Shown here in pieces: positions 19,880 through 52,273 of a stretch of 64,000 nucleotides of DNA. Where the stretch lies: assembly GCA_964016885.1 (NCBI GenBank), contig OZ024751.1, positions 44,454,001-44,518,000 of the forward strand, written 5' to 3'. Position 1 is the first letter of the stretch. Each line of letters starts with the position of its first letter. The DNA comes from Eledone cirrhosa. Taxonomy: Eukaryota. A model generated the notes under the pieces. It did no database searches and was not told where the DNA came from. It saw nothing but the letters and a program-made list of their open reading frames with translations. Made by a program: the position numbers and the translations under genes.

Positions 19880-22800
19880 ATAGCCTCAAAGGGTTAATCG
19901 GTCGATTTGACCTGGCCGATAGATATCGACTAGATTTTCCGACTGCGCCAACCTGGACTTGGGCAAATCGTAGCGGATCATCTAGGTCGTACCTAGATAG
20001 GTTCTTAGTTAGAATTAAGGATAAGGACTTTTTAAGTTGTCCAAAAATGCGCATGGTTGGCTATTCAGACCACAAATTAGTGACCTGCATGGTCAACCTT
20101 GACAGAACTCATAGACAGGGCCCCGGTTACTGGAAGCTCAACTTGTCCTTGCCGGCAAGTAGAGCCTACAGGAATCGGATTAGTACGTTAGTTAAGGAAC
20201 GGTTGACTGGAGCGATCGTCAACAGCAGGTGGTGGGTATCTCTAAAGAGAGAGATTAGAGTAGTCTCGATAGAATTTAGTAAGGTTCTAGCTGCGGATAG
20301 GAATAGGAAGGAAAGGGAGCTAATAGATAGAGTAGAAGAGGCAATTAGAAGCGGCGACGTGGCCAGAGTGCTAGCGTCGAGAACGGCTTTGAGCCAGTTT
20401 TTCGACGCGAAGCACGAAGGCTGCGTTGTCCGAAGTAAAATACGTGCTCTAGGGAACGAGGGGACCAAAGCTGTTAGCTGGGCCCGCATGACAGAGGCCA
20501 ACAGTGGAACTAAATCCACCATCCGGTCTTTGCGAGACCTGGATGGACGGGCGATTCTTGAGCCTAAGCAGATGTGTGAGGCCTTTCAAAGGCACTTTGC
20601 CCGACTGTTCGGGAGGGGCGGGGAGCCGGTTGGGAACGTGGACTTCGGTCCATACCTCGACGGCCTGCCGCGCCTCTCGGACAGGGAGGCGAAGTCCTGC
20701 GAGGAGCCGATTTCGGCCGCTGAGATAGAGGACGTGCTGAGCCAATGCGGCAAACGCAAATCCCCGGGTCTCGATGGTCTTCCTTACGAATTATATCTAG
20801 CTATGCCGGACTTGTTCCCCGATCTCCTCGAGGCGGTCTACTGCAACTGGCAACAGAACGGGAGAATTCCCTGTACTGTGACCAAGGGCGTAGTCACGCT
20901 AGTGAGGAAGGACGAGAACAAGGGGGACGAAATAAGTAACTTCAGGCCCATAACACTGCTAAATACAGAGTTACAGATTTTGGCCAAGGTGCTAGCAAAG
21001 AGGTTGGCGCTTGTCGTGGGCAACCTGGTGGGAGATGCGCAGACATGCGCTATCCCGTCCAGGTCCATCCATGACAACCTCCACCTCATGCGATACATCA
21101 TAGAGAGGGTTGGGAACGAACCCGGCTTTGGTGGGGATCTGATCAACTTGGATCAATCTAAGGCGTTCGATAGGGTCGACCATGGTTACCTGGATGCGGT
21201 GCTAGCGGCGGCAGGCTTCGGACCCGTTTTCAGGGGCTGGATCACTGCTATGCACAGCAGCCGCATCTGCTCTAGGGTCAAGGTGAACGGCTACCTCTCG
21301 GAGCCGTTCAAAATCGCGCGGTCCATCCGACAAGGGTGCCCTCTCTCCTCCCTTCTGTATGTGTTGACTCTCGAGCCACTACTGCGGAAGTTGGAGTTGT
21401 TGCAGGGCATCCCTTTGGAACCGGGATTGCGGAAAGCGGTGTCGGCCTACGCCGATGACGTGACAGTAATGGTGTCGACAGCCTCCGAAATCGAGGCGGT
21501 CGGCACCTTACTGGAGGAGTACGAAAAGTTCACAGGGGCTAAGCTGAACCGGGACAAGTCGATCGGTTTGCAACTCGGCACGTGGAGGGGCAGACCGATG
21601 CCCTCCGATGGCGTCGTCGGACGCTGGACGGAGGGCCCGGTGAAGTTGCTCGGGGTCTGGTTCGGACCGGACCTCCAGGTGGAGAAAAACTGGGCGGAGG
21701 TTACGAACAGGGTGTTTGCACTGACCCAGAAGTGGGCCAGTTGCAAACTATCCCTGAAAGGTCGGGCGGAGGTGGCGAACACCTACATAGCGTCCGTCAT
21801 CTACTACCGCCTGACCGTAGTGCCCTGCCCAAGGGAAACCCTCACCAAGATGGAGCGCGCGCTCTTCCAATTCCTTTGGAAGAGGCGGGCTCCTATGGTG
21901 AGGAGATCCATCTGCTGTCAACACCCTTCGAAAGGAGGGCTGGGGATGCCGTGGCTAATGATGCGTAAACACGCATTAAGGCTACGGCACCTCTACGTAT
22001 TCCTCACCGGACAACCGGTGTGGGCCTCGTTTGTGAGACGAACCTTTCCCAGACTCGTCTCACTCACCGAGCTGCAATCCTGGGTCAAGCAAAGACCGAG
22101 AAAACTGGGCGCCTGGCACACTGAGTGTGCCCAGGCGCTCACCGCCCTCTGGCAGGCGGATCCGGTTATCAGTGGAGACTCCACCGCAACATTCTATAGA
22201 GGGCTGGTACGCAGCAGGTGCGACGACGCCCTCGGAGAAGCCCTAGACATGGAGGAGGACGAACTGGCCAGCCTGTTCGGTAGGACATTCAGCCCGGGAC
22301 CTATGGACAACTTCCAGAAGTCCCTGGCCTGGCAGTGCTACCGAGGGGCTTTACCCGTTCGAGAAAGGCTCTACAGACACGGGCGCCCGGGTAGGGACCC
22401 CGCCAAAAAGATCTGTCCCAGATGCGTGTGCGACGAGGAAACCGTTGCACACGCATTGGTACACTGCTCGGGCGTAGCCGATCTGTGGGGCTATGTCGAA
22501 CAACTGCTGTCAAGGGTGGGACCGATCCGGTTGACCACCGAGTCTATTGTAATGATCAAGCCGCCTCCCCCCTTCAAAGATGAAGCAGAGGCGGTGTTTC
22601 TGTGCGTAATAGCCATGGCGAAAGAGGTTGTATGGTGGACGCGTCTGAAAGGACTGAGGTCAGACACCTTTCTCTCTGGCCAACAACTGGTCCGTTTCTT
22701 CCGATATCATTTCGGAAGAAGGATCAGGATGGAGAGAGAGGTGCTGCACCCCAGCCGTTTCTATGAAAGATGGGTGAAAGTGGCGAGAATGGCCCGTGTG

Positions 22801-23092
22801 AATGGGCCTTCACTCTACATCAGACTATAGGTGAGGAAGATGAAAGACCAAGGGAGCACCCCTTCTCTGTGCTCCTGAGGAGAAGGGTTGCACACTTTTT
22901 TCGGGGGTGTGTGCGAGCCCCCAAGGCGCCTCCTCTCTATTGAGGATTTTGTTAAAAATTTTATTTTTTGTTATATCTTATTTTATTTTTATATTTTGTT
23001 ATTGCCTCCTCCTTATTGAGGACGCCTTTTTGTGTAAACTCCCCCCTTTGTACTTGTCCCACTTTTGATGCCCTAGTGGCAAATAAAAGAAA
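19878..23092 (+). mobile_element. Tx1-clade non-LTR retrotransposon, 5'-truncated, at an (ATCT)n/(CT)n tract
   Basis: Starts abruptly after (ATCT)n within the endonuclease domain; near-identical to 49055-52271; ends gtggcAAATAAAAGAAA then ttatctatct. Confidence 0.95.
19879..22830 (+). CDS. Truncated ORF2: end of APE endonuclease, reverse transcriptase, CCHC-type zinc finger
   Basis: YLDRF..SDH (APE), GYWKLN, KSPGLDG, FRPITLLN, LDQSKAFDRVDH, RQGCPLS, AYADD, GGLG, CPRC..ETVAHALVHC. The first ~40 aa of the ORF-track entry are flank and microsatellite. Confidence 0.93.
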
Positions 23093-23464: not shown

Positions 23465-23558
23465 ATTAATCGATTAGTAAACGACAGTAGCCAGATCCTG
23501 GATTTTCAACAAGGAAGAGGACTAACCATCTGTGTTTACGCATCAAATTCAATACACA
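23465..23558. repeat. Left arm of perfect 94-bp inverted repeat (partner 27321-27414)
   Basis: Exact reverse complement of 27321-27414; symmetry continues ~60 nt into the adjacent interrupted (TA)n. Confidence 0.97.
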
Positions 23559-23619
23559 TATATATATATATGTATATATATACGTATGTATATATATATA
23601 TGTATATATGTATATATAT

Positions 23620-25440
23620 ATCGGAATCGAAGATAGGACAGGACCACTCTTACCGGCGGTACCCACTTTCAATCTTAAGGACCACAAGGTAAACTTTGAT
23701 AATGACCCTAAAATTAGATTAATCTGCCCCTCTAAATCAGATATAGGTAAAATAAGCAAATATATCTTAGATAGAATCATCCCCCAAATTAAGGCTAAGG
23801 TTAACATTAAACTCTGGGGGAAGACCCAAGAAGCAATAAGATGGTTTAATAGCATTAGCAATAAGAATAAATCTAAGTTTATCCAGTTTGATATCGATGA
23901 ATATTACTCATCGATATCACCTGAAACTTTGAATAGAGCCATTAAGTTTGCTAAGGATAACTCCGACCTTACAAACGATGAAATTAAGATTATATTAGAA
24001 GCTAGGAAAACTATAGTCAAATTTGAGAACAGTTATTGGGTACGTAAAGATAGACCCTCTAACTTTGACATAACAATGGGCTCTAACGATTCGGCGGAAA
24101 TAACTGATATTGTGGGGTTATTTATCGCCTTTAGACTCCAGGAAAAATTCAGCAATCTCCACGGCGGAATATACCGCGACGATGTTCTCCTCCTAGCTAA
24201 AAACCTTAATAACCAAAAACTAGAAAAACTACGCAAAGATATAAGAAAACTACTACTCGAAATAGGACTAACTATAACATATGAATACAACCTTAAAGTA
24301 GTTAACTTCCTGGATGTCACACTCAATTTAAACTCTGGTTTGATTAAACCGTTTCATAAATTGAATGAAAATCTCAAATACGTAAATGTTGGGTCTAACC
24401 ACCCCATCTCTATAATTAAATCTATCCCTAAAAATATTTCCCTTAGAATCTCGGGTCTATCTTCTAACATACAAGTATTTAAGGAACACGCCGAGTACTA
24501 CGATAACGCCCTTAGTAAAGCAGGCTACCTCAACAAAATAGAGTACATAGATGGGAACAATCAAAACACCCAAAATAAATCCCACATAGGTAGATATAAT
24601 AACACAACACCAAACCACACTTACTACCATAGTATGCACACCAGTAAACCAACAAACAAAACTAATAGAAAGCGATGCAAAGAGTACTTATGGTATAACC
24701 CCGAATACAATAGCTCCATTAGTACAAATTTACCAGTACTCTTCTTTAAAATAATTAAAAGACATTTTCCCACATCACACAAATACCACAAAATCCTAAA
24801 CCCTACCACTATAAGACTGTCATACTCTACAGCGTTAAACCTTGAACAACACATAAAAAAGATCAATACTAGAAGGTTAAACGAAAACACTAAGAACTTA
24901 AGTACAAAGAACCCCCAAAAAACAGTAGACAATACACTACAGAACATAAATAAACCACACCTAAGTTCGTCCGCAATACTACTCCAGAGAAAACCCAACG
25001 TACACAACTGTAACTGCACCTATCCTGACAACTGCCCCCTCGGCAATAACTGCCTGGAAAAAAATATTATTTATAAGTGTACCATTAAATCCGGAGGCAA
25101 CGAGTGGTATTACGTGGGATCAACGGCAACATCGTTTAAATCTCGATTGTATAGGCATTCTTACTCAATAAAACACCAGAGCCAAAGAAATGTAACAACT
25201 TTAGCAGAAAAAGCTTGGACGCTCAGGGATAGCAATCAAAAGTTTACCCTAAAATGGGAAAAATTAGCTAAAACCCAGAGCTTTTCCAGGAGCCAAAATT
25301 TCTGCAAATTGTGTAATCTTGAGATTTATTACATAATCACACACAAGAAGAAACTGCTGAATAACAGAATTGAACGAACATTATTCTGCCGTCACAGAAC
25401 TAAAACCCTTTTTTCCCACTACAAGCAGAATATTACATAA
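23620..25440 (+). CDS. Penelope-like element RT + C-terminal GIY-YIG endonuclease, Naiad-like, 5'-truncated but uninterrupted
   Basis: LKDHK..F..RLI.P, FIQFDIDEYY, FDITMGS, GIYRDD, VNFLDV, SNHP; linker CNCx5CPL..C; IIY..YYVG..FKSRL..H; CKLC..E..LLN..CRH. The ATG at 23608 lies in (TA)n flank. Confidence 0.92.
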   Translation: MGIEDRTGPLLPAVPTFNLKDHKVNFDNDPKIRLICPSKSDIGKISKYILDRIIPQIKAKVNIKLWGKTQEAIRWFNSISNKNKSKFIQFDIDEYYSSISPETLNRAIKFAKDNSDLTNDEIKIILEARKTIVKFENSYWVRKDRPSNFDITMGSNDSAEITDIVGLFIAFRLQEKFSNLHGGIYRDDVLLLAKNLNNQKLEKLRKDIRKLLLEIGLTITYEYNLKVVNFLDVTLNLNSGLIKPFHKLNENLKYVNVGSNHPISIIKSIPKNISLRISGLSSNIQVFKEHAEYYDNALSKAGYLNKIEYIDGNNQNTQNKSHIGRYNNTTPNHTYYHSMHTSKPTNKTNRKRCKEYLWYNPEYNSSISTNLPVLFFKIIKRHFPTSHKYHKILNPTTIRLSYSTALNLEQHIKKINTRRLNENTKNLSTKNPQKTVDNTLQNINKPHLSSSAILLQRKPNVHNCNCTYPDNCPLGNNCLEKNIIYKCTIKSGGNEWYYVGSTATSFKSRLYRHSYSIKHQSQRNVTTLAEKAWTLRDSNQKFTLKWEKLAKTQSFSRSQNFCKLCNLEIYYIITHKKKLLNNRIERTLFCRHRTKTLFSHYKQNIT

Positions 25441-25554
25441 AAGAGGGACATCCCCCAACTATATAAACCTTAATCTAGTTAGAAAAAAATATAAAAACAA
25501 TCTCTTCTCAACATATATTAATAACCTTAAATTACCATACTAATAATGAAAAGA

Positions 25555-25612
25555 TATGCTGATGAGAATAGGTACAAATATGCGATAATGAATGTGTCTA
25601 AAAACGTCCATA
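25555..25612 (+). ncRNA. Degenerate hammerhead motif in the PLE 3' UTR
   Basis: tatg-CTGATGA-gaa[taggtaca..tgtgtcta]-AAAAC-GTC|cata; helices I and II pair but GAAA reads AAAA. Confidence 0.55.
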
Positions 25613-25711
25613 AGTATGTATATATATGTGAAAATGTATATAAATAAGTAAATATATATATATGTTTGATGTGTATAGTTAGATGTAAGTGTATTCATGT
25701 ATTAAAGTGCT

Positions 25712-25744
<33 letters not shown>

Positions 25745-25767
25745 ATATGTGTGTATATGTGTATGTG

Positions 25768-25798
<31 letters not shown>

Positions 25799-26390
25799 GT
25801 ATATGTATATATGTATATATATATATGTGTATGTATGTATGTGTATATGGATGTGTATGTATGTGTATGTGTGTACACATGGACTAGAGTATGTATGTAT
25901 ATATGTGTGTGTCTATACGTGTGTATATATAAAGATAAGTTGAGTATGAAAATGTATACACATGAGCGCGTATGTATGTACATGAATACATGTGTGTATA
26001 TATATGTGTATGCATGTGTATATATATGTAAGTATGAATATGTGAATTGTGAGTATATGTATTTTGTAGAGGTGTGCAAATATATTTGTGTGTGAATGCG
26101 TGGGTGAAAGAATACGTACACTTGAAAGAAAAATTTAAGTCTGAATGTTAAGTGCAAACACAAAACCAACCACGCATATCTTTACTATCTCTAATCCTTC
26201 TATAGATTTAGAAAAATAACCAATAATATATTCTATAAAAAATGTCAAAACAACAGATGGGAATCTAATTAATCACTGCCACCAAGAATTCTCACTGCTA
26301 TCGAAAAACCACTCCTTCAACTATTCTTCTAACAACTTCACCCCTTCCTCCTAATATTCTCTATAAAAACTAAATAGGTCCTCAGTAATA

Positions 26391-26507
26391 TTATTCTGAT
26401 GAAATGACAGTAAACAATAACATTGAAATATTGAATGTCTGCATAACTAAAAGTTTGTAGATAGCTGTTTTAGGTTATGTAACTGTTATAGAAACACGTG
26501 TCAATAA
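26391..26507 (+). ncRNA. Type I hammerhead ribozyme with long branched helix II
   Basis: ttatt-CTGATGA-a[atgacagt..actgttat]a-GAAAC-acgt-GTC|aataa; GUC site after 26502; A.A mismatch at the base of helix II. Confidence 0.85.
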
Positions 26508-26654
26508 ATTCCTTTCAACTAAACTGTATCCATTCAAATCTTTCTATTTTTCTCCGGATTACTTTTGGAACTACAACTGGAACCGTCGAGCAAACTCTAC
26601 GTGAGCTGATAATCTACTGTGTGTAATATTTATATTACAACACAACGGAAAAAA

Positions 26655-26708
<54 letters not shown>

Positions 26709-26731
26709 ACATACATATATTATATGTATGT

Positions 26732-26777
<46 letters not shown>

Positions 26778-26970
26778 TCAGGTTTGAGGTTCACCACTGT
26801 ATAGAGCTGGTCTATTCCGTATGGTCAATCGTAATGCAATAATATGGAGAGTACTCAACGTAAAGCAGTTCAACCGTCTTTGTTTTTGTGTTGGTGGTGC
26901 GAGTACGGAGTTAAATATTATAATGAAATGACAGGACGCTGGATTTGTGTAAATCCTTGAAAGGTTTATT

Positions 26971-27028
26971 ATACTATGATCATTTCAATGACCGGGTTCC
27001 GTGTGAATCCGGTGATATCATCAGGTAT
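26971..27028 (-). ncRNA. Type I hammerhead ribozyme, intact core
   Basis: Minus: atac-CTGATGA-[tatcaccggattc acacg gaacccggtcatt]-GAAA-tgatca-TA|gtat, then AATAAA and a tail ending tttcatt. Confidence 0.85.
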
Positions 27029-27160
27029 TCGAAATATAATGCGTGAGTGTAATAGGTAAAATCCATGGGGCTGAAAATCGAGACCCGAGGGCGACCGCTA
27101 TTCTGTTCCTTCAACCTCAGCCGGTCGCCCTGGAGTGACGTGGCTAAATTTTATAGTATG

Positions 27161-27264
<104 letters not shown>

Positions 27265-27320
27265 TATACATATATACATATATATATATACATACATATA
27301 TATATACACATATATATATA

Positions 27321-27414
27321 TGTGTATTGAATTTGATGCGTAAACACAGATGGTTAGTCCTCTTCCTTGTTGAAAATCCAGGATCTGGCTACTGTCGTTT
27401 ACTAATCGATTAAT
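27321..27414. repeat. Right arm of perfect 94-bp inverted repeat
   Basis: Reverse complement of 23465-23558. Confidence 0.97.
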
Positions 27415-27743: not shown

Positions 27744-27752
<9 letters not shown>

Positions 27753-27948
27753 AATGAATAATAACAGGTAGACATCATTCTGCTCTGAGGAAACAGTGGT
27801 CATAGCATTGGATATTTGAGTTCTGCAAGTACTTGTGAATTTGCACATAGCATAACTAGGCTTTAGTACCACCGTGGAAACACTTGTAAGCACACGGAAT
27901 AAATTACCTTTTTATGATGTCTACCTGTTATTATTCATTCTTTATATA
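27744..27948 (+). mobile_element. Short hammerhead-containing element bounded by a perfect 35-bp inverted repeat
   Basis: 27744-27778 is the reverse complement of 27914-27948; the spacer is a hammerhead plus AATAAA. Confidence 0.8.
27781..27892 (+). ncRNA. Type I hammerhead ribozyme with long helix II insert
   Basis: tgct-CTGAGGA-[aacagtggt..accaccgtg]-GAAAC-actt-GTA|agca; two mismatches in helix II. Confidence 0.8.
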
Positions 27949-35431: not shown

Positions 35432-35822
35432 ATATGAATAAAATTAGACCTAGAAGACAGGACTGTCCGTCATCAGTGATCTTCCAGCCATCATCGGTAT
35501 TTCGTCCCGTCTGACCTGTGTGAAATCCTTTTCTCGCTCACATTTCACAGGGTCCAGATGCGTCTTTCTCTCCTCATCCACGATTTGTTCACAGATATCA
35601 CGGACTTGTTTCTCATCTTCCTCTCTTTCCGTTGAATTACCATCTCTGTTTGTTTACATTTCTCGCTTTCTTCACCCAATTCTACTTGTCCCAATAACGT
35701 TTTTTAGTTATTGCTCGCACCAACCTGAGGTATATGGTCTTTAATGCGAAGAAATACCGATGATGGCTGGAAGATCACTGATGATGGACAGTCCTGTCTT
35801 CTTGCTCTAATTTTATTCATAT
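35432..35822. repeat. 72-bp inverted repeat (3 mismatches) around a 247-bp spacer, abutting (TA)n
   Basis: 35432-35503 versus 35751-35822. Confidence 0.9.
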
Positions 35823-38962: not shown

Positions 38963-39720
38963 GGCAGTATCGGTAGAGGGTCGGACGCCGTGCTAGGGTG
39001 GTGGATTGGCAGTATCGGTAGAGGGTCGGACGCCGTGCTAGGGTGGTGGATTGGCAGTATCGGTAGAGGGTCGGACGCCATGCTAGGGTGGTGGATTGGC
39101 AGTATCGGTAGAGGGTCGGACGCCATGTTAGGGGGGTGGATTGGTAGTATCGGTAGAGGGTCGGACGCCGTGCTAGGGTGGTGGATTGGCAGTATCGGTA
39201 GAGGGTCGGACGACATGCTAGGGTGGTGGATTGGCAGTATCGGTAGAGGGTCGGACGCCGTGCTAGGGTGGTGGATTGGCAGTATCGGTAGAGGGTCGGA
39301 CGCCATGCTAGGGTGGTGGATTGGCAGTATCGGTAGAGGGTCGGACGCCGTGCTAGGGTGGTGGATTGGCAGTATCGGTAGAGGGTCGGACGACATGCTA
39401 GGGTGGTGGATTGGCAGTATCGGTAGAGGGTCGGACGCCATGCTAGGGTGGTGGATTGGCAGTATCGGCAGAGGGTCGGACGACATGCTAGGGTGGTGGA
39501 TTGGCAGTATCGGTAGAGGGTCGGACGACATGCTAGGGTGGTGGATTGGCAGTATCGGCAGAGGGTCGGACGCCATGCTCTGCAGCAAAGAGTTACGGCC
39601 CTTTATGGTCTGAGGTCAAATCCCGCCGAGGTTAACTTTGCCTTTCATCCTTACGGGGTCGATAAAATACAGTACCAGTAATGTACTGGAGTAATTACTG
39701 GCCTAAAGTAGTAACAATTA
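38963..39720 (+). mobile_element. Family-A SINE whose first 45 nt are tandemly repeated 14 times
   Basis: Unit gggtggtggattggcagtatcggtagagggtcggacgccatgcta; the last unit continues into the normal SINE body and tail. Confidence 0.93.
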
Positions 39721-39771: not shown

Positions 39772-39801
<30 letters not shown>

Positions 39802-39809
<8 letters not shown>

Positions 39810-40122
39810 TAAGAGGAATTCCAACTATGTCTGATTTACTCGTTTTATTTACAATCCTTTAAAATTTATAATGGTATTATAATGAAATAGTATGGTAGAA
39901 TATTAAATGTTAAGTGTTAATTGAACAAGTACTTTCATGCTTTCGCAATCTTCAGGTTCATAATGTGTGGTGACAGTCAAGTTTGCAATTTTCAACTGTT
40001 CAATTAACACTTAACATTTAATATTCTACCATACTATTTCATTATAATACCATTATAAATTTTAAAGGATTGTAAATAAAACGAGTAAATCAGACAAAGT
40101 TGGAATTCCTCTTATTAATATA
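39802..40122. repeat. 126-bp inverted repeat (1 mismatch) with a 69-bp spacer carrying a hammerhead
   Basis: 39802-39927 versus 39997-40122. Confidence 0.95.
39922..39960 (-). ncRNA. Minimal type I hammerhead ribozyme
   Basis: Minus: tgaac-CTGAAGA-t[tgc gaaa gca]t-GAAA-gtac-TT|gttca; CUU site, cut between 39927 and 39926. Confidence 0.85.
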
Positions 40123-40160
40123 ATCTTCTATACACAATCATACACACCCGTGTATATTTA

Positions 40161-40224
<64 letters not shown>

Positions 40225-41100: not shown

Positions 41101-41279
41101 ATAGGAACAAGTATGACCCCGACGGCAGAGCTCAAGCCGTTTCGACGGCTAATTCTGGATTAAATAAGAATTTTTAGCCTGGTAGATAATTTATTTACCA
41201 GGCTAAAACTTCTTATTTAGTCCAGAATTAGCCTTCGAAACGGCTTGAGCTCTGCCGTCGGGGTCATACTTGTTCCTAT
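41101..41279. repeat. ~180-bp near-perfect palindrome (fold-back)
   Basis: Arms of ~89 bp with 4 mismatches and essentially no spacer; (TA)n on the right. Confidence 0.95.
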
Positions 41280-47141: not shown

Positions 47142-48545
47142 GCGAAGGAGCTACTGGCGGATGCGAAAAAATATATAGTGTACGGGGAAAATGGTTCATT
47201 CACAATCCATTCCCCCCCGGAACTAAAAAGCCAGAGACTCCTAAACACGGTCATGTTTAGGACAATCTCGAACAAAAGTAAAAAACCAGCTCAACCATCA
47301 CAGAGCGAGATAGAGCTGGTTTTAAAAGACGTCATGAAGGACATCACCTTCATTCAGAAGGATAGACTCTACGGGAGTCTATCCATTCTCATGAAGGACA
47401 GGGACACAGCAGTGAAACTGTCCATCAAACCAATCACATCCACCGCATACACCTTCTACCCTACGTACATGGGTAGAAGAACACAAAAAATAAAAATCCA
47501 CACCATCCTGCCGATTATGGACATATGGTGGGTTTTGACAGGTTTTCTGGACCTGGAGGATGACATGCTGGTGTCCATGGGAAAGGCATCGGGTGACGCG
47601 TTCAGTGGAACGAGCCTCGAACTTGTAGTTCAAATGAGGCCCGAAAGGATCGCCCAGATCCCTGAACGCGTCATACTGGATGATCTAACCTTCATCAACA
47701 TTACCGTTGAGGGTAGACGGCCCTCGTGTTACCTCTGCGGAACCAGAGGTCACCTGAGGGCTGTCTGTCCCCAACTTAATAAGAAAACCCCAATCCTGCC
47801 TACACCACCAACAACTGCACAACCAACACAATCACCACAACTACCACTACAAAAACAACCACCACAGCTCAAACCAAAACAAAACAATGTCCAACCCATC
47901 CCCTCCACTCAAAAAACAAAAACAATTTCCAAAACACCCGTACCGCAAACACAACCCGAAAATATACCCCTCCCCTCCAACGCGGAAGATGACCCTAGTT
48001 CGTCGTCAGACGAGGAGGAGCACTTCCACACAATCAAAAGAAAAAAAAGAAAACACACCTCAGACACACAAATGAAAAAAAACCCTCCCCAAAACATAAC
48101 ACTGACACCAACACAAAAGAGCTCACAACAGCAAACAAAAAACACCACACAAAAACAAAAACATGCATACACATACATAAATACAAGAAACAAAAAACTG
48201 TTAAACATTGTGTACAACAACAATCTAATAAAAACACAAGGGCCTAACTTCACCCAGGCAGGGGATTTCCCCCACCTCAAAATGATTAAGGCCCCACAGG
48301 ACACCTATAAAACTTTAAAAAACAATTTTAAAGAGGACGTGGGTCCCCCCTGCGTCGGGCCCATTAACCGCGTCCTCCTAAAAAACTATCCCACCCCCTC
48401 CCCAAACACCCTCACAACTCCAAGCTCCCCAACCACACAACACACTGATGCCCCCACACTTCCACAAACCACCACCCCACCCAACAACCCATCCCCCACC
48501 CTAATGGAAATTGTGCAGCCCGATACCCGGGACGCAGAGAGGTAA
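47142..48545 (+). CDS. ORF1, gag-like protein with a CCHC zinc knuckle; probably 5'-truncated
   Basis: CYLCGTRGHLRAVC (CX2CX4HX4C) then a P/T/Q/K-rich tail; the frame is open back to the insertion junction with no nearby initiator ATG. Confidence 0.88.
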   Translation, partial: AKELLADAKKYIVYGENGSFTIHSPPELKSQRLLNTVMFRTISNKSKKPAQPSQSEIELVLKDVMKDITFIQKDRLYGSLSILMKDRDTAVKLSIKPITSTAYTFYPTYMGRRTQKIKIHTILPIMDIWWVLTGFLDLEDDMLVSMGKASGDAFSGTSLELVVQMRPERIAQIPERVILDDLTFINITVEGRRPSCYLCGTRGHLRAVCPQLNKKTPILPTPPTTAQPTQSPQLPLQKQPPQLKPKQNNVQPIPSTQKTKTISKTPVPQTQPENIPLPSNAEDDPSSSSDEEEHFHTIKRKKRKHTSDTQMKKNPPQNITLTPTQKSSQQQTKNTTQKQKHAYTYINTRNKKLLNIVYNNNLIKTQGPNFTQAGDFPHLKMIKAPQDTYKTLKNNFKEDVGPPCVGPINRVLLKNYPTPSPNTLTTPSSPTTQHTDAPTLPQTTTPPNNPSPTLMEIVQPDTRDAER

Positions 48546-48569
48546 GTGCCTTTTCTCTTCACCACCAAC

Positions 48570-51500
48570 ATGGCTATGCTAAGAGTAGGCTGTTTAAATG
48601 CGCGTGGCCTGGGCTCAACTTGGAAGCAAGCAATGCTTCTAAATGACCTCAGGTCACAACGTATAGATGTGATGGTTATTTGCGAGGCCCGGATCAGCAA
48701 CGTGCGACAGCTGTCCCCCACCTTTGATGACTTTGAGATGCACGCATCTCTCTGTCAGCCCGGAGGTGGGGGTGGAGTTGTCGTTCTGCTGCAAAAACAT
48801 CTGGGTCTCGCAACACAGATGGTACATTTGGACCCGGAGGGTCGACTAGTGGTTCTGGACCTTGGCAGTGGTAAAGGCGGAGCGTTTAGGTTGGTAGCCG
48901 CCTACGGCCCTTTCGGGTCAATGCGGCCGGACTTCTTCCATCGTCTGGAGACTTTTCTAGGGACGTCCCGCTCCTTGCTATTAGTGGGGGACTGGAATGG
49001 TATCCTAGATGCACGCTGGGACTACGTAGGGGCCTGCCCCGATAGAGAGGGGTGTAATAGCCTCAAAGGGTTAATCGGTCGATTTGACCTGGCCGATAGA
49101 TATCGACTAGATTTTCCGACTGCGCCAACCTGGACTTGGGCAAATCGTAGCGGATCATCTAGGTCGTACCTAGATAGGTTCTTAGTTAGAATTAAGGATA
49201 AGGACTTTTTAAGTTGTCCAAAAATGCGCATGGTTGGCTATTCAGACCACAAATTAGTGACCTGCATGGTCAACCTTGACAGAACTCATAGACAGGGCCC
49301 CGGTTACTGGAAGCTCAACTTGTCCTTGCCGGCAAGTAGAGCCTACAGGATTCGGATTAGTACGTTAGTTAAGGAACGGTTGACTGGAGCGATCGTCAAC
49401 AGCAGGTGGTGGGTATCTCTAAAGAGAGAGATTAGAGTAGTCTCGATAGAATTTAGTAAGGTTCTAGCTGCGGATAGGAATAGGAAGGAAAGGGAGCTAA
49501 TAGATAGAGTAGAAGAGGCAATTAGAAGCGGCGACGTGGCCAGAGTGCTAGCGTCGAGAACGGCTTTGAGCCAGTTTTTCGACGCGAAGCACGAAGGCTG
49601 CGTTGTCCGAAGTAAAATACGTGCTCTAGGGAACGAGGGGACCAAAGCTGTTAGCTGGGCCCCCGCGTGACAGAGGCCAACAGTGGAACTAAATCCACCA
49701 TCCGGTCTTTGCGAGACCTGGATGGACGGGCGATTCTTGAGCCTAAGCAGATGTGTGAGGCCTTTCAAAGGCACTTTGCCCGACTGTTCGGGAGGGGCGG
49801 GGAGCCGGTTGGGAACGTGGACTTCGGTCCATACCTCGACGGCCTGCCGCGCCTCTCGGACAGGGAGGCGAAGTCCTGCGAGGAGCCGATTTCGGCCGCT
49901 GAGATAGAGGACGTGCTGAGCCAATGCGGCAAACGCAAATCCCCGGGTCTCGATGGTCTTCCTTACGAATTATATCTAGCTATGCCGGACTTGTTCCCCG
50001 ATCTCCTCGAGGCGGTCTACTGCAACTGGCAACAGATCGGGAGAATTCCCTGTACTGTGACCAAGGGCGTAGTCACGCTAGTGAGGAAGGACGAGAACAA
50101 GGGGGACGAAATAAGTAACTTCAGGCCCATAACACTGCTAAATACAGAGTTACAGATTTTGGCCAAGGTGCTAGCAAAGAGGTTGGCGCTTGTCGTGGGC
50201 AACCTGGTGGGAGATGCGCAGACATGCGCTATCCCGTCCAGGTCCATCCATGACAACCTCCACCTCATGCGATACATCATAGAGAGGGTTGGGAACGAAC
50301 CCGGCTTTGGTGGGGCTCTGATCAACTTGGATCAATCTAAGGCGTTCGATAGGGTCGACCATGGTTACCTGGATGCGGTGCTAGCGGCGGCAGGCTTCGG
50401 ACCCGTTTTCAGGGGCTGGATCACTGCTATGCACAGCGGCCGCATCTGCTCTAGGGTCAAGGTGAACGGCTACCTCTCGGAGCCGTTCAAAATCGCGCGG
50501 TCCATCCGACAAGGGTGCCCTCTCTCCTCCCTTCTGTATGTGTTGACTCTCGAGCCACTACTGCGGAAGTTGGAGTTGTTGCAGGGCATCCCTTTGGAAC
50601 CGGGATTGCGGAAAGCGGTGTCGGCCTACGCCGATGACGTGACAGTAATGGTGTCGACGGCCTCCGAAATCGAGGCGGTCGGCACCTTACTGGAGGAGTA
50701 CGAAAAGTTCACAGGGGCTAAGCTGAACCGGGACAAGTCGATCGGTTTGCAACTCGGCACGTGGAGGGGCAGACCGATGCCCTCCGATAGCGTCGTCGGA
50801 CGCTGGACGGAGGGCCCGGTGAAGTTGCTCGGGGTCTGGTTCGGACCGGACCTCCAGGTGGAGAAAAACTGGGCGGAGGTTACGAACAGGGTGTTTGCAC
50901 TGACCCAGAAGTGGGCCAGTTGCAAACTATCCCTGAAAGGTCGGGCGGAGGTGGCGAACACCTACATAGCGTCCGTCATCTACTACCGCCTGACCGTAGT
51001 GCCCTGCCCAAGGGAAACCCTCACCAAGATGGAGCGCGCGCTCTTCCAATTCCTTTGGAAGAGGCGGGCTCCTATGGTGAGGAGATCCATCTGCTGTCAA
51101 CACCCTTCGAAAGGAGGGCTGGGGATGCCGTGGCTAATGATGCGTAAACACGCATTAAGGCTACGGCACCTCTACGTATTCCTCACCGGACAACCGGTGT
51201 GGGCCTCGTTTGTGAGACGAACCTTTCCCAAACTCGTCTCACTCACCGAGCTGCAATCCTGGGTCAAGCAAAGACCGAGAAAACTGGGCGCCTGGCACAC
51301 TGAGTGTGCCCAGGCGCTCACCGCCCTCTGGCAGGCGGATCCGGTTATCAGTGGAGACTCCACCGCAACATTCTATAGAGGGCTGGTACGCAGCAGGTGC
51401 GACGACGCCCTCGGAGAAGCCCTAGACATGGAGGAGGACGAACTAGCCAGCCTGTTCGGTAGGACATTCAGCCCGGGACCTATGGACAACTTCCAGAAGT

Positions 51501-52009
51501 CCCTGGCCTGGCAGTGCTACCGAGGGGCTTTACCCGTTCGAGAAAGGCTCTACAGACACGGGCGCCCGGGTAGGGACCCCGCCAAAAAGATCTGTCCCAG
51601 ATGCGTGTGCGACGAGGAAACCGTTGCACACGCATTAGTACACTGCTCGGGCGTAGCCGATCTGTGGGGCTATGTCGAACAACTGCTGTCAAGGGTGGGA
51701 CCGATCCGGTTGACCACCGAGTCGATTGTAATGATCAAGCCGCCTCCCCCCTTCAAAGATGAAGCAGAGGCGGTGTTTCTGTGCGTAATAGCCATGGCGA
51801 AAGAGGTTGTATGGTGGACGCGTCTGAAAGGACTGAGGTCGGGCACCTTTCTCTCTGGCCAACAACTGGTCCGTTTCTTCCGATATCATTTCGGAAGAAG
51901 GATCAGGATGGAGAGAGAGGTGCTGCACCCCAGCCGTTTCTATGAAAGATGGGTGAAAGTGGCGAGAATGGCCCGTGTGAATGAGCCTTCACTCTACATC
52001 AGACTATAG
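48570..52009 (+). pseudogene. ORF2 (APE endonuclease, RT, zinc finger) with one +2 frameshift at ~49660
   Basis: LNARGL, ICEAR, VGDWN, YLDRF, SDH, AYADD; gggCCCCCgcg here versus gggCCCgca in the intact copy at ~20480. Confidence 0.92.
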
Positions 52010-52273
52010 GTGAGGAAGATAAAAGACCAAGGGAGCACCCCTTCTCTGTGCTCCTGAGGAGAAGGGTTGCACACTTTTTTCGGGGGTGTGTGCGACCCCC
52101 CAAGGCGCCTCCTCTCTATTGAGGATTTTGTTAAAAATTTTATTTTTTGTTATATCTTATTTTATTTTTATATTTTGTTATTGCCTTCTCCTTATTGAGG
52201 ACGCCTTTTTGTGTAAACTCCCCCCTTTGTACTTGTCCCACTTTTGATGCCCTAGTGGCAAATAAAAGAAATA

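What the first reader, a model, noticed from the sequence alone, without database searches (positions are those of the whole stretch)
39802..40122. Inverted duplication starting at the predicted hammerhead cleavage site
Seen: 126-bp arms with one mismatch. The minus-strand hammerhead (39922-39960) should cut CUU|GUUCAAUUAAC between 39927 and 39926, and the second arm (39997) starts T-GTTCAATTAAC. The duplicated segment therefore equals the 3' cleavage product to within 1 nt. Inference: reverse transcription ran to the ribozyme-made 5' end of an RNA, and a second cDNA was joined in the opposite orientation. This would be genomic evidence that the ribozyme was active and set the insertion boundary. 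Inverted pLTRs are an established PLE feature.
Basis: partly seen in the sequence, partly recalled or inferred. Interest (0 to 1): 0.8.

Follow-up and report, generated by a model that had tools for sequence, protein, structure and literature searches.

The report
Penelope-type inverted end at hammerhead cut
This is likely the head-to-head pair of short copies that Penelope-like jumping genes commonly leave in TA repeats; one copy starts at the predicted cut site of its own self-cleaving RNA, but one case cannot show that the cut set the boundary, and the other copies I could sample did not repeat it.

Summary
In detail: 126-bp arms, one mismatch, a minus-strand type I hammerhead motif, and a second arm that starts at the predicted cut (0 or -1). 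The unit is larger than reported. The second copy carries a 40-nt tail (40123-40162) and both ends sit in (TA)n, which is the described anatomy of Penelope-like (PLE) inverted ends. Four more such units lie in this window. Public runs show a many-copy family, colinear across the cut, and no fixed inverted (MITE) unit. The claim that the cut set the boundary is unproven. Chance is 1-2% per unit. A second unit with a decayed hammerhead starts at +25. No listed joint or loose end in four runs falls at the cut, but that test was weak: read-end peaks were AATT library artefacts, and this locus's own junction was not recovered. The ribozyme looks weak (U·U at 10.1/11.1, CUU triplet, best dimer fold pairs A14 with U17). 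A 5-nt inverted microhomology offers a cut-free route. Verdict: ordinary PLE-type remnant (about 0.85); cut-defined boundary about 0.3. If a genome-wide peak exists, it would be evidence that PLE hammerheads cut in vivo, which is an open question.

The parts
39774..39805 (.). (TA)n tract at the left end; likely insertion target, joined directly to the 3' end of copy 1
   Evidence: sequence; 2 contigs of run X1 also run into (TA)n left of 39809
39802..39996 (-). Copy 1: 5'-truncated 3' end of the element, sense on minus, without tail; its 5' end lies 70 nt upstream of the first base after the cut
   Evidence: colinear across the cut in contigs of X1 (39856-39996, 39810-39962) and X7 (39808-39959)
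39802..39927 (-). Arm 1; 39827 is a private change (family base is the one in arm 2)
   Evidence: 570 of 579 X13 reads and over 99% of X1 depth show the arm-2 base
39922..39960 (-). Minimal type I hammerhead motif: stem I 39960-39956/39926-39922, CUGAAGA 39955-39949, stem II 39948-39937 (U·U at 10.1/11.1), GAAA 39936-39933, palindromic helix III, triplet CUU; predicted cut 39927/39926; activity untested
39991..39995 (+). 5-nt inverted microhomology with 39921-39925, one base from the junction
   Evidence: also seen as a helix in the fold of 39880-39996
39997..40122 (+). Arm 2 = start of copy 2 (inverted, sense on plus), beginning at offset -1/0 from the predicted cut
40123..40162 (+). 40-nt AC-rich extension on copy 2 only, likely the PLE 'tail'; 6-bp hairpin at 40140-40155
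   Evidence: hairpin z -3.43; one contig of run X7 holds 22 letters matching 40108-40129 at 21 of 22, 7 of them beyond the arm
40163..40221 (.). (TA)n tract at the right end
   Evidence: sequence

Best explanation
This is likely a single Penelope-like retroelement insertion into a (TA)n tract, made of two 5'-truncated copies of the element's hammerhead-bearing 3' end joined head to head, and the second copy's start at the predicted cut is more likely an ordinary truncation point than a product of the ribozyme. Shown: arms, hammerhead motif, one-sided tail, (TA)n on both sides, many diverged relatives colinear across the cut. Inferred: the element's endonuclease cut the TA tract, reverse transcription was primed from both DNA ends at two start sites 40 nt apart (giving the tail on one copy only), copy 1 read through an uncut hammerhead, and the two cDNA 3' ends were joined with little or no microhomology. 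Inferred and least certain: copy 2 stopped at the hammerhead because of RNA structure, the 5-nt inverted match beside the junction, or chance.
For: Five inverted pairs of this build lie in the 64-kb window, each with (TA)n at one outer end and a unique extension at the other; one (23466-27413) encloses an RT plus GIY-YIG ORF whose Atlas neighbours carry RVT_1, HTH_animal and GIY-YIG. Inverted 5'-truncated copies, a 30-40 bp one-sided tail and (TA)n targets are described PLE features (PMC8557442; PMC3846280). The tail lies between two RT start sites at an AC-rich stem-loop in the anole PLE (PMC11167929); the tail here holds an AC-rich hairpin. Copy 1 itself spans the cut site, so uncut RNA was a template. 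Unit A starts at +25. No listed joint or loose end at the cut in 4 runs. Best dimer fold pairs A14 with U17, -16.4 against -13.8 kcal/mol for the active register.
Against: A start within 0/-1 of the cut has only about 1-2% chance per unit under a uniform null. The run data are weak: X13 is nearly blind because an AATT site lies 5-8 nt from the cut, only 43 of 1730 X1 contigs were partly laid, 106 loose-end rows were hidden, and this locus's own junction was not among the listed joints. The 11 positions with an alternative base at 5% or more of X1 depth all avoid the 39-nt hammerhead (P about 0.07), which hints at selection on the motif. Unit A's hammerhead is decayed and was picked by eye (it failed my stem II filter; fold z +1.31). 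No ORF is linked to this family, so PLE membership is by non-coding features only. The native sequence upstream of 39996 is unknown, so junction microhomology could not be measured.
Confidence: 0.6

Rival explanations
1. Ribozyme-set boundary: a tandem transcript folded as a dimeric hammerhead and cut after CUU; RT ran off the new 5' end, and that cDNA was joined in inverted orientation to a cDNA from uncut RNA.
For: Offset 0/-1, chance 1-2%. Palindromic helix III allows a dimer (-13.8 kcal/mol in the active register). Common variants avoid the motif (P about 0.07). R2 precedent: the HDV-like ribozyme cut defines 5' junctions (PMC3774820, abstract).
Against: One case, chosen because it coincides; the scan's notes hold 225 findings with 'hammerhead' and 'Penelope', so many chances existed. 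No peak at the cut among rows shown. G10.1-C11.1 is missing and the A14-U17 register is favoured (PMC4209133, which also reports low activity of metazoan PLE hammerheads). Cleavage dispensable in vitro, no RNA-seq ends at the cut for the anole PLE (PMC11167929).
Confidence: 0.3
2. Snap-back: the cDNA of copy 1 folded back on itself at the 5-nt inverted match next to the cut and was extended, so arm 2 is a copy of the same molecule and no RNA end is involved; arm 1 lost its tail during resolution. I count this as one form of the cut-free reading.
For: 5-nt match 39991-39995 with 39921-39925. Arms share all family-polymorphic alleles (13-23% expected from two independent sources). Self-priming was proposed for PLE inverted junctions (PMC3846280).
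Against: A clean snap-back at that match would give a junction 8 nt shorter than observed (sequence). The tail is on arm 2 only, so it cannot have been copied from arm 1 as it now stands.
Confidence: 0.2
3. A MITE with 126-bp terminal inverted repeats in a TA target.
For: Near-perfect terminal inverted arms and TA flanks.
Against: No strand-change joint among 1730 X1, 16 X4 and 4 X7 contigs; X1 record 6 runs 30 letters past 39996 without a listed joint, and 2 X1 contigs leave after 39995 into other sequence. One-sided tail.
Confidence: 0.04
4. A truncated non-LTR retrozyme (tandem hammerhead repeat mobilised by a PLE) rather than a PLE end proper.
For: Type I hammerhead, low GC, no ORF nearby; retrozymes are related to pLTRs (bioRxiv 10.64898/2026.07.22.740005, passages; PMC7229834, passages).
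Against: No tandem repeat here; both copies end in (TA)n without returning to the hammerhead; the core is minimal, not canonical.
Confidence: 0.1
5. Assembly or amplification fold-back artefact.
For: This junction was not among the joints listed in 4 runs.
Against: Arm 2 has the family base at the one mismatch and a tail that arm 1 lacks; four other units share the build.
Confidence: 0.02

Closest known systems
Canonical EN+ Penelope-like elements with inverted pLTR and tail (Arkhipova et al. 2013, PMC3846280; Craig et al. 2021, PMC8557442; passages read)
   Same: Head-to-head inverted 5'-truncated copy, 30-40 nt extension at one end only, (TA)n target, hammerhead in the terminal repeat.
   Different: No ORF between the arms; no palindrome at the junction; the inverted copy starts at the predicted hammerhead cut, which the passages I read do not describe.
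Minimal PLE hammerheads (Cervera and de la Pena 2014, PMC4209133; parts 1-2 of 4 read)
   Same: Type I topology, 5-bp helix I, short palindromic helix III suited to dimers.
   Different: Helix II is only 3 bp and closes with U·U instead of the conserved G10.1-C11.1; triplet CUU.
Poseidon of Anolis carolinensis, PAc (Frangieh et al. 2024, PMC11167929; parts 1-2 of 4 read)
   Same: Tail with an AC-rich stem-loop, AT-rich target, hammerhead in the repeat.
   Different: For PAc, cleavage needs the protein, is dispensable for insertion in vitro, and no RNA ends map to the cut; here nothing was assayed.
R2 non-LTR elements with an HDV-like ribozyme (Eickbush et al. 2013, PMC3774820; abstract read)
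   Same: Working model for the novel reading: a ribozyme cut makes the RNA 5' end that fixes the 5' junction.
   Different: Different ribozyme, at the 5' end of a full element, site-specific in 28S rDNA, shown over many junctions; not a member.
Non-LTR retrozymes (Cervera and de la Pena 2020, PMC7229834; passages read)
   Same: Non-coding, type I hammerhead, probably PLE-mobilised.
   Different: Retrozymes are tandem units of about 300 bp cut to monomers; this unit is inverted and not tandem.

Membership tests
EN+ Penelope-like element | RT plus GIY-YIG ORF belonging to the same element | not testable with these tools
   No ORF in the unit; no genome held; upstream sequence not retrievable (searches found nothing). 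The PLE ORF at 23635-25440 shares no sequence with it.
EN+ Penelope-like element | Type I hammerhead in the terminal repeat, sense to the element | tested here: met
   (6 cores in window, 0 in 40 shuffles)
EN+ Penelope-like element | Inverted 5'-truncated copy, head to head | tested here: met
EN+ Penelope-like element | 30-40 nt tail on one end only | tested here: met
   40123-40162; first 7 nt beyond the arm also in one X7 contig
EN+ Penelope-like element | Dispersed, many-copy, microsatellite target | tested here: met
   1730 contigs in X1, 1639 reads in X13; 2 X1 contigs end in (TA)n at 39809
EN+ Penelope-like element | Target-site duplication | tested here: inconclusive
   Hidden by (TA)n on both sides
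Minimal PLE hammerhead | CUGANGA and GAAA boxes, NUH triplet, palindromic helix III | tested here: met
Minimal PLE hammerhead | G10.1-C11.1 pair | tested here: not met
   U·U; no alternative base at these places among the 40 best-supported differences shown, 109 hidden
Minimal PLE hammerhead | Self-cleavage at the predicted site | not testable with these tools
   needs an in vitro assay; folding favours the A14-U17 register
MITE | Fixed unit with both arms in many copies | tested here: not met
   no strand-change joint listed in X1, X4, X7, X13
Non-LTR retrozyme | Tandem monomers running cut to cut | tested here: not met
   no tandem at this locus; other loci not seen
Ribozyme-defined 5' junction (R2-like) | 5' ends of many copies cluster at the cut | tested here: inconclusive
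   0 of 6 upstream-side loose-end rows from contig runs at 39926-39928; low power

The most novel reading that the evidence does not exclude
In this family the dimeric hammerhead cuts in vivo, and reverse transcription running off the ribozyme-made 5' end fixes the inner end of the inverted copy; the genome then records PLE hammerhead activity as a peak of 5' junctions at the cut, as R2 junctions record the HDV-like ribozyme.
Probability: 0.3. Interest if true: 0.72.

Novelty: new member of a known kind. Interest (0 to 1): 0.36.

Why it matters
The role of PLE hammerheads is open. Craig et al. 2021 call it unclear, Cervera and de la Pena found low activity and no in vivo evidence, and Frangieh et al. 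found cleavage dispensable in vitro. My searches found no report that PLE 5' junctions map to the hammerhead cut; two relevant papers were not held, and I read no supplements. This locus suggests a cheap test: in a genome with about five such units per 64 kb, a histogram of inverted-arm starts against the cut, family by family, would show whether these ribozymes cut transposition templates. As it stands, the locus is an ordinary remnant with one suggestive coincidence.

Tried and rejected
Rfam at gathering score: no match in the window. No genome held. Exact-pattern scans of metagenome, prokaryote genome and viral contigs: no match. Earlier findings by sequence, place and a six-word query: nothing. 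No RNA holder listed; this says nothing on expression. Rejected: reading the five X13 read-end peaks (39817, 39866, 39919, 39922, 39990) as element ends; all 5 of 5 fall on AATT sites, so they are taken as restriction-library ends and ligation chimeras. Set aside: one X7 contig with an inverted junction about 106 nt downstream of the cut, because all 3 X7 loose ends shown lie within 2 nt of AATT; I use it only to show the tail is family sequence. Withdrawn: my first guess that the X1 loose end at 39995 gives the native upstream sequence (corrected). Pfam found no family for the ORF at 23635-25437. Units B and C have no full hammerhead by my descriptor and unit D's link to the hammerhead at 26396-26502 is untested, so none of the three counts as a clean control. 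The review read for triplet rates gave no figure for CUU.

Full report
Observation. The inverted repeat is real: arms 39802-39927 and 39997-40122, 126 nt, 69 nt apart, one mismatch at 39827. The minus strand holds a type I hammerhead motif at 39960-39922 with a 5-bp stem I, both core boxes, a 3-bp stem II, a palindromic helix III and the triplet CUU; the predicted cut is between 39927 and 39926. The descriptor found 6 cores in the window and none in 40 block shuffles. Rfam did not report it and the monomer folds no better than shuffles. Arm 2 starts at the partner of 39927, so its offset from the cut is -1, or 0 if that one base belongs to the other copy.

Anatomy. The unit is two copies of one element's 3' end, joined head to head, with 3' ends facing out into (TA)n. 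Copy 1 (minus, 39996 to about 39802) includes the whole hammerhead and starts 70 nt upstream of the first base after the cut. Copy 2 (plus, 39997-40162) starts at the cut and carries a 40-nt extension that copy 1 lacks. The extension holds an AC-rich 6-bp hairpin (z -3.43), and one contig of run X7 shows its first bases joined to the family 3' end (21 of 22 letters). An inverted 5'-truncated copy, a 30-40 bp one-sided tail and (TA)n targets are described features of Penelope-like elements (PMC8557442, 12 passages; PMC3846280, 11 passages). In the anole element the tail is the stretch between two RT start sites at an AC-rich stem-loop (PMC11167929, parts 1-2 of 4).

Surroundings. A masked self-comparison found five short-range inverted pairs: this one, A (27750-27942), B (35436-35818), C (41101-41279) and D (23466-27413). 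All 5 of 5 have (TA)n at one outer end and unique sequence at the other. D encloses a 5'-truncated ORF (23635-25440) whose Atlas neighbours score 0.94-0.98 and carry HTH_animal, RVT_1 and GIY-YIG on part of their members; Pfam alone gave nothing. So this build is common here and PLE machinery is present. The host is not given; the SINE at about 39582-39700 looks to me like an octopus SINE (recalled, not tested).

Other copies. No genome is held and four pattern scans were empty. Public runs hold the stretch (15 listed); I laid 4 of them on 39808-39996. X1 gave 1730 contigs, X13 1639 raw reads, X4 16 and X7 4 contigs. The family is many-copy and a few percent diverged, and contigs run straight across the cut. 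The base at 39827 is private to arm 1. No strand-change joint was listed, which argues against a fixed, amplified inverted unit (MITE).

Test of the boundary claim. The five read-end peaks in X13 all lie on AATT sites and are library ends; because one AATT lies 5-8 nt from the cut, X13 cannot see a junction there. In the contig runs, 0 of the 6 upstream-side loose-end rows shown (X1 39866, 39872, 39995; X4 39856; X7 39990, 39991) and neither of the 2 joints lies at 39926-39928. This is a weak negative: 106 loose-end rows were hidden, only 43 of 1730 X1 contigs were partly laid, the X7 ends sit near AATT, and this locus's own junction was not recovered. Within the window, unit A has a hammerhead-like core in its spacer (picked by eye, decayed, failing my stem II filter) and its arm starts at +25. 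Under a uniform null the target's offset has a 1-2% chance. The scan's notes hold 225 hammerhead-Penelope findings in at least 29 genomes, so such a coincidence had many chances to be picked.

Would the ribozyme cut? It lacks the G10.1-C11.1 pair that Cervera and de la Pena list as highly conserved; they found no cleavage by a single minimal motif and low cleavage by dimers (PMC4209133, parts 1-2 of 4). CUU fits the NUH rule but is not one of the fast natural triplets GUC and GUA (PMC3138052, passages; no rate for CUU seen). In a two-strand fold the best structure pairs A14 with U17 (-16.4 kcal/mol) against -13.8 for the active register. In favour of function, the 11 positions with an alternative base at 5% or more of X1 depth all avoid the 39-nt motif (P about 0.07; taken from the 40 rows shown, and the sites are clustered). 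For the anole PLE, hammerhead mutants inserted normally in vitro and no RNA-seq reads began or ended at the cut.

Mechanism. Most likely (0.6) the endonuclease opened a TA tract, two cDNAs were primed from the two ends at start sites 40 nt apart, and their 3' ends were joined, as in twin priming of L1 (recalled). Copy 1 proves that uncut RNA served as template. The arms share all common polymorphisms, expected 13-23% of the time from independent sources, a weak sign of one source. Why copy 2 stops at the cut is open: chance, a stall at the hammerhead helices, or a fold-back at the 5-nt inverted match 39991-39995/39921-39925, which I score at 0.2 within the cut-free reading and which leaves 8 junction bases unexplained. 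The ribozyme-cut model remains at about 0.3; R2 shows such a thing can happen (PMC3774820, abstract). The family's native sequence upstream of 39996 is unknown, so junction microhomology could not be measured.

Novelty and verdict. The structure is a new member of a known kind, filed as PLE-type on non-coding features only, since no ORF could be linked. Six paper searches showed no report of PLE 5' junctions mapping to the hammerhead cut; two relevant papers were not held and no supplements were read. Interest 0.36: an ordinary remnant that points to a cheap, decisive genome-wide test of an open question.

Noticed in passing
window 23466-27413: 92-bp inverted arms (100% identical) enclosing a 5'-truncated RT plus GIY-YIG ORF (23635-25440, +) of Penelope type, with an extension on the right arm only.
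   Followed up: partly
window 26396-26502: Type I hammerhead motif with a very long stem II and palindromic helix III, triplet GUC; fold z -1.96.
   Followed up: partly
window 27750-27942: Second head-to-head unit with 29-bp arms; decayed hammerhead-like core 27785-27888; arm starts +25 from its cut and the other copy starts at the 5' strand of stem I.
   Followed up: yes
window 41101-41279: Near-perfect 89-bp palindrome with a 1-nt centre between (TA)n tracts; holds a hairpin and a GAAA box like the 3' half of a hammerhead, without the first box.
   Followed up: partly
window 35436-35818: 71-bp inverted arms, (TA)n on the right; both hammerhead boxes occur in the arm in reversed order but no full motif was found.
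   Followed up: partly
window 1035 (-), 38466 (-), 40590 (+), 43470 (+), 44150 (-): Five further hammerhead cores of unrelated sequence; two close stem II with A-U or a bulged A rather than G-C, and most have palindromic helix III.
   Followed up: no
window 38963-39577: 45-bp tandem array (about 14 units) running into a SINE-like repeat at 39582-39700 that has several dispersed copies in the window.
   Followed up: no
window 19880-23092 and 47142-52271: Two 99.4% identical copies of a non-LTR retrotransposon with endonuclease and RT domains; the second has an upstream ORF and a break near 49660.
   Followed up: no
window 39917 (runs X1, X7): One X1 contig ends in (TA)n 10 nt downstream of the cut, a possible second 3' end of the family; one X7 contig leaves at the same place but may be a library end.
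   Followed up: no
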